Virus record (IMG/VR): IMGVR_UViG_2778261544_000002
Strand: one strand, 5' to 3'
Source: a virus
Taxonomy: Duplodnaviria > Heunggongvirae > Uroviricota > Caudoviricetes
DNA: 13,771 nucleotides
The position numbers and the translations under genes are program-made. Of the stretch, positions 12,069 to 12,127 are shown in pieces. Within the stretch, counting starts at the first letter, position 1. The number at the start of each line of letters is the position of its first letter. Below the pieces are notes generated by a model that worked only from the letters and a program-made list of their open reading frames with translations, made no database searches and was not told the origin of the DNA.

Positions 12069-12080
12069 ACTCGTCTCCTG

Positions 12081-12107
12081 AAAATAAAAAACCCGCCAGC
12101 GGCGGGT
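12081..12107 (-). terminator. Intrinsic terminator-like hairpin immediately upstream of the major tail gene
   Basis: Minus strand ACCCGCC-GCU-GGCGGGU followed by UUUUUUAUUUU (plus 12081..12090 aaaataaaaa), then CAGGAGACGAGU AUG. The 3-nt loop is tight, so the real stem may be 5 bp with a 5-nt loop. Confidence 0.6.
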
Positions 12108-12127
12108 GGGTAAAATCATTAACGACC

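What the first reader, a model, noticed from the sequence alone, without database searches (positions are those of the whole stretch)
12069..12127. Terminator-like hairpin and U-tract placed directly in front of the major tail gene
The 59-nt spacer between the tail terminator gene and the major tail gene holds a GC-rich hairpin followed by UUUUUUAUUUU, then the Shine-Dalgarno and start codon. A terminator upstream of the most abundantly needed tail protein is counter-intuitive. The same hairpin / U-tract / Shine-Dalgarno / AUG arrangement recurs before the tape measure gene, lom and stf, which suggests a shared role: antitermination-dependent gating, or a processed 5' stabilising hairpin.
Basis: seen in the sequence. 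Interest (0 to 1): 0.5.

Follow-up and report, generated by a model that had tools for sequence, protein, structure and literature searches.

The report
Conserved terminator before tail-tube gene
The hairpin and U-run in front of the major tail gene form a genuine, strongly conserved transcription terminator of the HK97-type phage tail module; its HK97 counterpart was annotated as a putative terminator in 2000, so the finding is real but largely ordinary.

Summary
On the coding (minus) strand, 20 nt after the stop of the tail-completion gene, sits ACCCGCC-GCU-GGCGGGU (12107-12091). It is followed by UUUUUAUUUU, AGGAG and the ATG at 12068. The window holds five such terminators, all in intergenic gaps of the coding strand and none on the other strand.

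The major tail protein is 71% identical to HK97 gp12. The HK97 GenBank record already marks a "putative terminator" at the same gp11|gp12 junction. All 75 distinct spacers I collected, from enterobacterial, Providencia, Halomonas/Salinicola and Burkholderia phages, carry a canonical terminator 17-27 nt before the V start, with compensatory stem changes. It stays with V when the upstream genes are swapped or a gene is inserted.

Near-identical phages carry a Q antiterminator upstream, of two unrelated families. The consensus scan found no promoter between the terminator and V. The best reading is therefore a real terminator that stops unmodified RNA polymerase and is read through by Q-modified polymerase. 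Its selective role is not established. The 5'-stabiliser and RBS-insulation ideas gained no support. Novelty is low.

The parts
12128..12472 (-). Tail completion / tail terminator gene (HK97 gp11 homologue), stop codon TGA at 12130-12128
   Evidence: Pfam PF11367 Tail_completion_gp17, E 2.7e-11. RefSeq E. coli genomes name it gp17 tail completion protein.
12108..12127 (-). 20-nt spacer between the stop codon and the hairpin, long enough for a ribosome at the stop codon not to cover the stem
   Evidence: Sequence. In relatives this distance varies from 4 to 90 nt, median 17.
12091..12107 (-). Terminator stem-loop ACCCGCC-GCU-GGCGGGU (5' arm 12107-12101, loop 12100-12098, 3' arm 12097-12091)
   Evidence: 7 bp, 6 G-C pairs, -12 kcal/mol. 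Nearly invariant in 80 close relatives, with one compensatory G-C to A-U change. The structure is conserved with covariation across 38 distinct stem-loops.
12081..12090 (-). U-tract UUUUUAUUUU immediately 3' of the stem (UUUUUUAUUUU if the paired U at 12091 is counted)
   Evidence: The first U positions are invariant in the alignments. The run length is polymorphic, 6 or 7 U, among close relatives.
12075..12079 (-). Shine-Dalgarno AGGAG of the major tail gene, 6 nt before the ATG
   Evidence: Sequence. A GGAG/AGGAG sits at the same place in most relatives.
11364..12068 (-). Major tail (tail tube) gene, 234 aa, true start ATG 12068
   Evidence: 71% identical to HK97 gp12. Pfam Ig_2, with sub-threshold Phage_TTP_11 and Phage_tail_2 matches. 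Start fixed by homologue N-termini.
10645..10667 (-). Second terminator AACCGCUUCGGCGGUU + UUUUUUU between tail chaperone T and the tape-measure gene
   Evidence: The same hairpin follows a moron-like extra ORF in relatives (L009, L016, L017). HK97 annotates a putative terminator at the equivalent place.
5030..5057 (-).
   Evidence: Identical to lambda 15464-15481 in the I|J gap.
1489..1518 (-). Fourth terminator GGGCACCAGAAAUGGUGCCU + UUUUUAUUGC between J and lom
   Evidence: Lambda has a terminator in the same gap (18920-18935).
812..843 (-). Fifth terminator AGCCCGCCGGUUCAGGCGGGCU + UUUUUGUGGA between lom and stf
   Evidence: Lambda has a terminator in the same gap (19612-19633).

Best explanation
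The element is a genuine Rho-independent terminator. It is the orthologue of the 'putative terminator' annotated between gp11 and gp12 of phage HK97, and it forms a fixed part of the 5' flank of the HK97-type tail-tube gene.

Inferred mechanism:
1. RNA polymerase that has not been modified by the phage Q protein forms the hairpin in its exit channel over the U-tract and releases the transcript 20-30 nt before the tail-tube start codon. Such polymerase includes leak-through of the late-promoter terminator, spurious or secondary promoters inside the head genes, and moron promoters active in the lysogen. Tail genes therefore stay silent.
2. After induction, Q loads onto polymerase at the late promoter about 10 kb upstream and makes it terminator-resistant. 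This terminator, and the four others further down the operon, become transparent.
3. V is then translated from its own strong, uncoupled ribosome-binding site (a U-rich tract plus AGGAG).

What is shown: the anatomy, the position, deep conservation with compensatory changes, linkage to V, the presence of Q in near-identical phages, and no consensus sigma-70 promoter before V.

What is inferred: actual termination, Q-dependent read-through, and the selective benefit (insulation).
For: 1. Canonical anatomy on the coding strand only. There are 5 strict terminators against 0.4 expected, and none on the opposite strand.
2. All 75 distinct spacers from relatives have a strict terminator 17-27 nt before the V start. 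V identity goes down to 31-39% in Burkholderia phages phiE125 and KS9; the set also includes Halomonas phage H4907, ECP1 and an O157:H7 Stx2a phage.
3. The stems differ but stay paired. Among 38 distinct stem-loops, 96% of cells are paired against 74% in column shuffles, and 48 cells show double-sided changes against 12. On a plain MAFFT alignment the covariation score is 0.254 against 0.143 +/- 0.019, reached by 0 of 500 shuffles. One compensatory G-C to A-U change occurs among close relatives.
4. The U-run next to the stem is conserved. Termination requires it; a mere stabilising hairpin would not.
5. The HK97 record annotates 'terminator, putative' at 6692-6719 between gp11 and gp12. The window's V is 71% identical to gp12.
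6. Phages 99.5% and 97.8% identical over this segment carry Q upstream on the same strand. The two Q proteins belong to different families.
7. The scan found no sigma-70-like promoter on the coding strand between the head genes and V, so V expression requires read-through.
8. Published views list 'stop spurious transcription that initiates without antitermination' as one of two options for intra-operon terminators. Secondary promoters inside prophage capsid clusters have been mapped.
Against: - No RNA 3'-end or termination data were available for this site.
- Insulation in lysogens alone seems a weak selective force for retention in every sequence examined, across Gamma- and Betaproteobacterial phages. 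That pattern hints at a role during lytic growth.
- Phage lambda, with the same Q logic, has no terminator at U|V (a 7-nt gap). SPP1 places its terminator after, not before, the tail-tube gene. The position is therefore not a general requirement.
- In phiE125 no Pfam-recognisable Q was found (inconclusive because several Q families exist).
- In Salinicola-type loci the hairpin starts only 4-7 nt after the stop codon, where a terminating ribosome could interfere with folding.
Confidence: 0.6

Rival explanations
1. Partial attenuator. Even Q-modified polymerase terminates at a modest frequency at each internal terminator. The five sites would then create a stepwise decline of mRNA from head to tail to tip to fibre genes, matching the falling copy numbers of the downstream proteins.
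For: The terminators sit at successive module boundaries: before V, the tape-measure gene, J, lom and stf. The same punctuation is annotated in HK97. [quoted passage not shown]
Against: The gene immediately downstream (tail tube) is needed in far more copies than the four neck genes immediately upstream; that statement rests on general knowledge of siphophage virion stoichiometry. Attenuation at this exact point therefore works against stoichiometry and must be overcome by translation. No quantitative data are available.
Confidence: 0.18
2. mRNA processing or stability element. After read-through, the hairpin persists in the polycistronic mRNA. It would act either as a 3' exonuclease barrier for the head-neck segment or, after cleavage just upstream, as a 5' stabilising hairpin for the V-G-T segment.
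For: V-G-T is bracketed by hairpins at 12107-12091 and 10667-10652. The hairpin is inherited with V when the upstream genes differ (L014, L017). The A/U-rich tract after the stem resembles RNase E-preferred sequence; that resemblance is inference, not a test.
Against: Neither role requires a U-run contiguous with the stem, yet the U-run is among the most conserved columns. No conserved cleavage motif exists upstream, and the stop-to-stem spacer is variable in both sequence and length. No Rfam family matches.
Confidence: 0.12
3. Translation module. The U-tract serves as a ribosomal protein S1 or standby platform, and the hairpin insulates the V ribosome-binding site from upstream sequence. The tube protein would then be made at high level independently of the weakly translated, overlapping neck genes.
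For: The stem end lies 17-27 nt from the ATG in all 75 spacers (sd 2.7), whereas the distance to the upstream stop varies from 4 to 90 nt (sd 9.6). The U-tract abuts the SD. The element co-segregates with V.
Against: Predicted accessibility of the SD-AUG region hardly changes when the hairpin is destroyed or deleted in silico (mean 0.53 against 0.50-0.51 over 28 loci). The tight spacing equals the minimum room for a U-tract plus an SD, so genome compaction explains it. The other four terminators in the window show similar spacing to the next start.
Confidence: 0.07
4. Not a functional element. It would be a decaying remnant of a former moron cassette, part of a longer V reading frame as annotated in phages Evi and 606R7, or a small RNA gene.
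For: The Tc1|V gap can hold a moron: L017 has a KilA-N ORF there, flanked by two terminators. An in-frame ATG at 12119 exists and is used in two GenBank records.
Against: Every relative examined retains the element, with compensatory changes, which rules out neutral decay. Homologues start at the Met equivalent to 12068. There is no promoter, no conserved sequence upstream of the stem and no Rfam hit, so nothing supports an sRNA.
Confidence: 0.03

Closest known systems
Putative terminator between genes 11 and 12 of phage HK97 (GenBank AF069529, feature 6692-6719; Juhala et al. 2000)
   Same: Same junction (tail completion gp11 | major tail gp12), with 71% identical tail-tube proteins. Same anatomy: AACCCGCC-AGAU-GGCGGGUU + UUCUUUUUCC, then AGGAG and ATG. 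HK97 likewise has annotated terminators before H and before J.
   Different: The stem sequence, loop (GCU against AGAU) and U-tract details differ. HK97 has an additional terminator right after gp12, whereas here V and G overlap. The HK97 feature is an annotation only. I could not read the paper, and I found no experimental test.
Internal terminators of lambdoid late operons read through by Q-modified RNA polymerase (lambda, P22/L)
   Same: The logic is the same: one late promoter, a processive antiterminator, and canonical terminators in the few intergenic gaps. Lambda has them at D|E (directly before the major capsid gene), E|FI, I|J, J|lom and lom|orf401. The I|J hairpin is identical to the window's.
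   Different: Lambda has none at U|V or T|H. [quoted passage not shown]
Terminators that follow major capsid and tail-tube genes in SPP1
   Same: Late gene clusters are delimited by stem-loop terminators in intergenic regions.
   Different: In SPP1 the terminator lies after the tail-tube gene 17.1*. The gp17|gp17.1 gap is only 13 nt with no terminator. Here it lies before the tube gene and after the chaperones.
Moron cassettes (promoter-gene-terminator) such as HK97 gene 15 and lambda lom
   Same: The J|lom and lom|stf terminators bracket lom. The T|TMP terminator is the one that follows gp15-like extra ORFs in relatives. The Tc1|V gap accepts a KilA-N insert in L017.
   Different: At Tc1|V in this window there is no ORF and no promoter, only a 59-nt spacer. 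The terminator is universal while the insert is rare.

Membership tests
Rho-independent (intrinsic) terminator | G+C-rich stem of about 5-12 bp with a short loop on the transcribed strand | tested here: met
   7 bp with 6 G-C pairs, 3-nt loop, -12 kcal/mol, minus strand.
Rho-independent (intrinsic) terminator | U-rich tract immediately 3' of the stem | tested here: met
   UUUUUAUUUU directly after the stem. The U columns are invariant in relatives.
Rho-independent (intrinsic) terminator | Structure maintained by selection (compensatory substitutions) | tested here: met
   Caveat: the alignment is anchored on each predicted hairpin. The plain MAFFT alignment still exceeds all 500 shuffles.
Rho-independent (intrinsic) terminator | RNA 3' ends or transcript release at the U-tract in vivo or in vitro | not testable with these tools
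   No transcript data are accessible. Public EHEC Term-seq data exist for phages with the same arrangement.
Orthologue of the HK97 gp11|gp12 putative terminator | Same position between homologous flanking genes | tested here: met
   Upstream gene is PF11367 and downstream protein is 71% identical to gp12. The HK97 feature is at 6692-6719.
Q-antiterminated late-operon internal terminator | Lies inside a late operon headed by a Q gene and late promoter on the same strand | tested here: met
   Not visible in the window itself. Phages 606R7 (99.5%) and Evi (97.8%) have Q (PF06323 and PF03589) about 10 kb upstream on the same strand.
Q-antiterminated late-operon internal terminator | No promoter between the terminator and the downstream genes, so their expression needs read-through | tested here: inconclusive
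   The consensus sigma-70 scan finds none on the minus strand between 13771 and 12068. A consensus scan cannot exclude weak or non-sigma-70 promoters.
Q-antiterminated late-operon internal terminator | Read-through depends on Q | not testable with these tools
   Requires in vitro transcription or Q-minus induction.
5' stabilising hairpin of a processed mRNA | Hairpin within a few nt of a mapped 5' end, with a conserved processing site upstream | tested here: inconclusive
   There are no 5'-end data. The spacer upstream of the stem is not conserved in sequence or length. The conserved U-run is not explained by this role.
Moron cassette | Own promoter and ORF upstream of the terminator | tested here: not met
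   The 59-nt spacer holds no ORF and no promoter. Only L017 has an insert at this site.
Hfq-type or 3'UTR-derived small RNA | Conserved single-stranded seed upstream of the terminator, and a match to a known family | tested here: not met
   No Rfam match at E<=1 in the whole window. The region upstream of the stem varies between lineages.
Coding sequence (251-aa major tail protein as annotated in Evi and 606R7) | N-terminal extension conserved as protein in homologues | tested here: not met
   Homologues at 71% identity or less cover 93% of the long form and start at the Met equivalent to 12068. PGAP aa (P0004).

The most novel reading that the evidence does not exclude
The terminator, U-tract and SD block is an obligatory cis-element of the tail-tube expression unit with a role in lytic growth, not just a passive insulator. 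It might set V translation or V-G-T mRNA lifetime, or enforce absolute silence of the tube protein in lysogens, for instance to avoid defence systems that sense tail-tube proteins. This would explain why every one of 75 distinct spacers, from E. coli to Burkholderia phages, keeps it 17-27 nt from the start codon. It would also explain why it travels with V when the neck genes are replaced (L014) or a gene is inserted (L017).
Probability: 0.2. Interest if true: 0.45.

Novelty: already known. Interest (0 to 1): 0.22.

Why it matters
Internal terminators punctuate the late operons of many temperate phages, and a recent genome paper states that their roles are not known. This site is a clean test case. 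It is retained in every relative examined, it sits directly before the most abundant tail protein, it occurs in about 17% of complete E. coli genomes (899 of 5426), and it is present in Stx-converting phages of O157:H7.

Showing whether it only blocks unmodified polymerase, or also tunes tail-protein output, would clarify two things. One is how prophages keep structural genes silent. The other is how stoichiometry is set within a single 20-kb transcript.

There is also a practical point. The hairpin is translated in two deposited phage annotations, which add a false 17-aa extension to the major tail protein.

Tried and rejected
- RNAalifold on a MAFFT alignment of 16 spacers returned no pairs, because loop lengths of 3-6 nt put the arms out of register. 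I replaced it with a hairpin-anchored tally and a conservative count on a MAFFT alignment.
- The first viral-contig scan returned only 96-100% identical relatives. They served for population variation only.
- The Rfam search of the whole window at E<=1 found nothing.
- I followed the idea that the element might be a prophage sRNA of the Pas, AgvB or StxS type. Those lie in the Q/lysis region, not here.
- In silico RBS accessibility with and without the hairpin showed a negligible effect, so the RBS-insulation idea was down-weighted.
- I looked for Q in the distant phage phiE125 by Pfam. None was recognised, which is inconclusive.
- The homologue search with the tail-completion protein gave few diverged hits. 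The two loci followed up had the same module and the same terminator.
- Juhala et al. 2000, Cumby et al. 2012 and the Casjens & Hendrix lambda review are not held in the library. What those authors wrote about the HK97 terminators is therefore known to me only through the GenBank features.
- The long 251-aa reading frame was rejected.
- A bidirectional terminator was rejected. On the plus strand the stem is followed by GGGTAAAATC, not a T-run, and my strict scan found no plus-strand terminator.

Full report
**What the window is.** All genes run on the minus strand and form the neck-to-fibre part of a lambdoid siphophage late operon. In order they are: head-tail connector, head closure, HK97 gp10-like, tail completion (PF11367), major tail, chaperones G and T, tape measure, M, L, K, I, J, lom, and the start of stf. 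The segment around the finding is 99.5% identical to E. coli phage vB_EcoM-606R7 and 97.8% identical to phage Evi. The junction itself occurs in 899 of 5426 complete E. coli genomes.

**The observation.** On the minus strand the tail-completion gene stops at TGA 12130-12128. After 20 nt comes ACCCGCC-GCU-GGCGGGU (12107-12091). It is followed by UUUUUAUUUU (12090-12081), C, AGGAG (12079-12075), ACGAGU and ATG (12068). The consensus scan and my stricter scan both call it a terminator. The local fold is -12 kcal/mol for the stem. The 76-nt context as a whole is not unusually stable (z = -1.6), as expected for a small local hairpin.

An in-frame ATG at 12119 would make the hairpin coding, and two GenBank records use it. 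Homologues at 71% identity or less are 233-238 aa and all begin at the Met equivalent to 12068.

**More than chance.** With strict criteria (at least 5 bp, dG <= -7, tail starting UU with at least 5 U in 8), the coding strand has exactly five terminators and the opposite strand none. Dinucleotide shuffles give 0.4 +/- 0.66, with a maximum of 2. All five lie in intergenic gaps:

| Junction | Coordinates |
|---|---|
| Tc1\|V | 12107-12091 |
| T\|tape measure | 10667-10652 |
| I\|J | 5057-5040 |
| J\|lom | 1518-1499 |
| lom\|stf | 843-822 |

Each is followed within 16-30 nt by an SD and a start codon.

**Conservation.** I collected the junction from several sources:
- 26 bacterial genomes of other genera, with V identity 44-79%;
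- 86 viral contigs related to the Providencia- and Salinicola-type proteins;
- two metagenomic or genomic relatives of the tail-completion protein;
- phages HK97, ECP1, Halomonas H4907, Burkholderia phiE125 and KS9, and an O157:H7 Stx2a phage.

Every one has a canonical terminator just before the V start. That makes 75 distinct spacers. In the subset tested this way, 24 of 24 real spacers passed the strict scan, against 0.3% of shuffled spacers.

The stems differ. Examples are ACCCGCC/GGCGGGU, GACCGCC/GGCGGUU, AAGCUGC/GCAGCUU, AGCCACC/GGUGGUU, GACCGUC/GACGGUU, GGCCCGC/GCGGGCC and ACCGGG/CCCGGU, with loops of 3-6 nt. In a hairpin-anchored tally of 38 distinct stem-loops, 96% of cells are paired against 74% (maximum 80%) after column shuffling. 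Double-sided changes occupy 48 cells against 12 (maximum 21). That alignment is defined by the hairpins, so it favours pairing. On an ordinary MAFFT alignment of 26 tetraloop versions, in which six rows are out of register, the covariation score is still 0.254 against 0.143 +/- 0.019 (0 of 500 shuffles). The slid controls are lower, and 4 of 7 pairs show double-sided changes. Among 80 close relatives the stem is almost invariant, with one compensatory G-C to A-U change, while the U-run length is polymorphic. The U positions next to the stem are the most conserved columns.

**Linkage.** The distance from stem end to ATG is 17-27 nt (median 22, sd 2.7). The distance from the upstream stop to the stem is 4-90 nt (median 17, sd 9.6). 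In Klebsiella spallanzanii (L014) the upstream genes are lambda-type Z and U (PF06763, PF06141), yet the same hairpin and an HK97-type V follow. Lambda itself has only 7 nt between U and V. In L017 a KilA-N ORF is inserted between the tail-completion gene and V. One terminator follows the tail-completion gene and a second sits 23 nt before V. The element thus belongs to the 5' flank of V.

**Comparison with what is known.** The HK97 GenBank record (AF069529, from Juhala et al. 2000) annotates 'terminator, putative' at 6692-6719 between gp11 and gp12, the major tail subunit. It marks further ones after gp5, after gp12, after the gp15 moron, before I and before J. The window's V is 71% identical to gp12, and the HK97 spacer has the same layout. 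The element is therefore the orthologue of an already annotated feature.

Lambda has strict terminators at D|E (directly before its major capsid gene), E|FI, I|J (identical to the window's), J|lom and lom|orf401, but none at U|V or T|H. SPP1 places terminators after the capsid gene and after the tail-tube gene, and none between gp17 and gp17.1. The phage L genome paper says of such intra-operon terminators that 'their roles are not known'. It offers partial termination, or stopping spurious transcription that lacks antitermination, as possibilities. Secondary promoters inside a prophage capsid cluster have been mapped by dRNA-seq. No Rfam family matches anywhere in the window.

**Mechanism.** The window does not include the regulatory region. 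The two closest phages have a Q antiterminator about 10 kb upstream on the same strand, followed by lysis, terminase, head, neck and tail genes. Their Q proteins belong to different Pfam families (PF06323 and PF03589). Read-through therefore cannot depend on a terminator-specific partner. It must be the generic terminator resistance that Q confers after loading at the late promoter, which is established knowledge of lambdoid Q proteins.

No sigma-70-like promoter was found on the coding strand between the head genes and V, so tail-tube expression requires read-through. The 20-nt gap between stop codon and stem leaves the hairpin free of a terminating ribosome (inference). The conserved pairing of hairpin with U-run argues that termination competence itself is under selection.

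I therefore favour the following reading. It is a real terminator that stops unmodified polymerase and is transparent to Q-modified polymerase. My overall confidence is 0.6. The terminator identity is near certain, Q-dependent read-through is likely, and the insulating benefit is only plausible.

**Rivals.**
- A partial attenuator (0.18) fits the punctuation of the operon but works against the high demand for tube protein.
- A processing or stability role (0.12) does not explain the conserved U-run, and there is no conserved site upstream of the stem.
- A translational role (0.07) fits the tight spacing to the start codon. However, predicted SD-AUG accessibility is almost unchanged when the hairpin is destroyed or deleted in silico (0.53 against 0.50-0.51). 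The spacing also equals the minimum needed for a U-tract plus an SD.
- Neutral remnant, coding extension and sRNA readings are essentially excluded.

**Unresolved.** Retention in every sequence examined, across phages of Gamma- and Betaproteobacteria, is stronger than I would expect for a mere safeguard in lysogens. No Q was recognisable in phiE125 (inconclusive). A lytic-phase role therefore remains possible (novel case, probability about 0.2).

**Verdict.** Novelty is low because the orthologous site is already annotated and the class is known. Interest is 0.22.

Noticed in passing
window 12069-12119 (minus strand); L001 5090-5845; L111 6251-7006: The major tail gene is annotated in phages Evi and vB_EcoM-606R7 with a start 51 nt too far upstream (251 aa). 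This translates the terminator hairpin as MILPTRRWRVFYFQETS. Homologues and PGAP support the 234-aa form.
   Followed up: yes
   Followed up: yes
window 10629-10635 (minus strand): The tape-measure gene most likely starts at GTG 10629 (MATLRELII..., identical to the HK97 H N-terminus; GGAG lies 7 nt upstream). The ATG at 10635 listed by the ORF finder is probably not the start.
   Followed up: partly
window 6364-7074 (+) and 6370-7068 (-); L111 1251-1961: Two long ORFs overlap antiparallel over the whole of gene L. The minus one is tail protein L (PF05100, E 1.6e-99). The plus one has no family, yet it is the ORF annotated in phage 606R7, where L itself is missing.
   Followed up: partly
L017 2190-2977: In Enterobacter intestinihominis a 176-aa KilA-N domain ORF is inserted between the tail-completion and major tail genes, flanked by two terminators. 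The junction is therefore a moron insertion site.
   Followed up: partly
L014 1979-3005: Klebsiella spallanzanii prophage is a mosaic. Lambda-type Z and U genes are joined to the HK97-type terminator and V, with the junction between the U stop and the hairpin.
   Followed up: partly
L003, L004, L005, L011, L013, L021, L168: 20-25 nt upstream of the hairpin: In the Serratia, Symbiopectobacterium, Pectobacterium and Brenneria group, the spacer before the hairpin is C/A-rich and G-free (for example CCCCACACCAUCACCAUCC). This resembles the CA-rich targets of GcvB-type sRNAs. It is absent from the window's own spacer.
   Followed up: no
window 13579-13767 (minus strand): A small ORF (62 aa from the listed start, no Pfam family) lies immediately upstream of the connector gene. 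In phage 606R7 it is annotated as a hypothetical protein between the major capsid and connector genes. Phage Evi lacks an annotated gene there.
   Followed up: no
L111 17208-17897 and L001 17056-17877: Two phages with nearly the same tail module carry Q antiterminators of unrelated Pfam families (PF06323 and PF03589). This is an example of late-regulator swapping with an unchanged set of internal terminators.
   Followed up: partly
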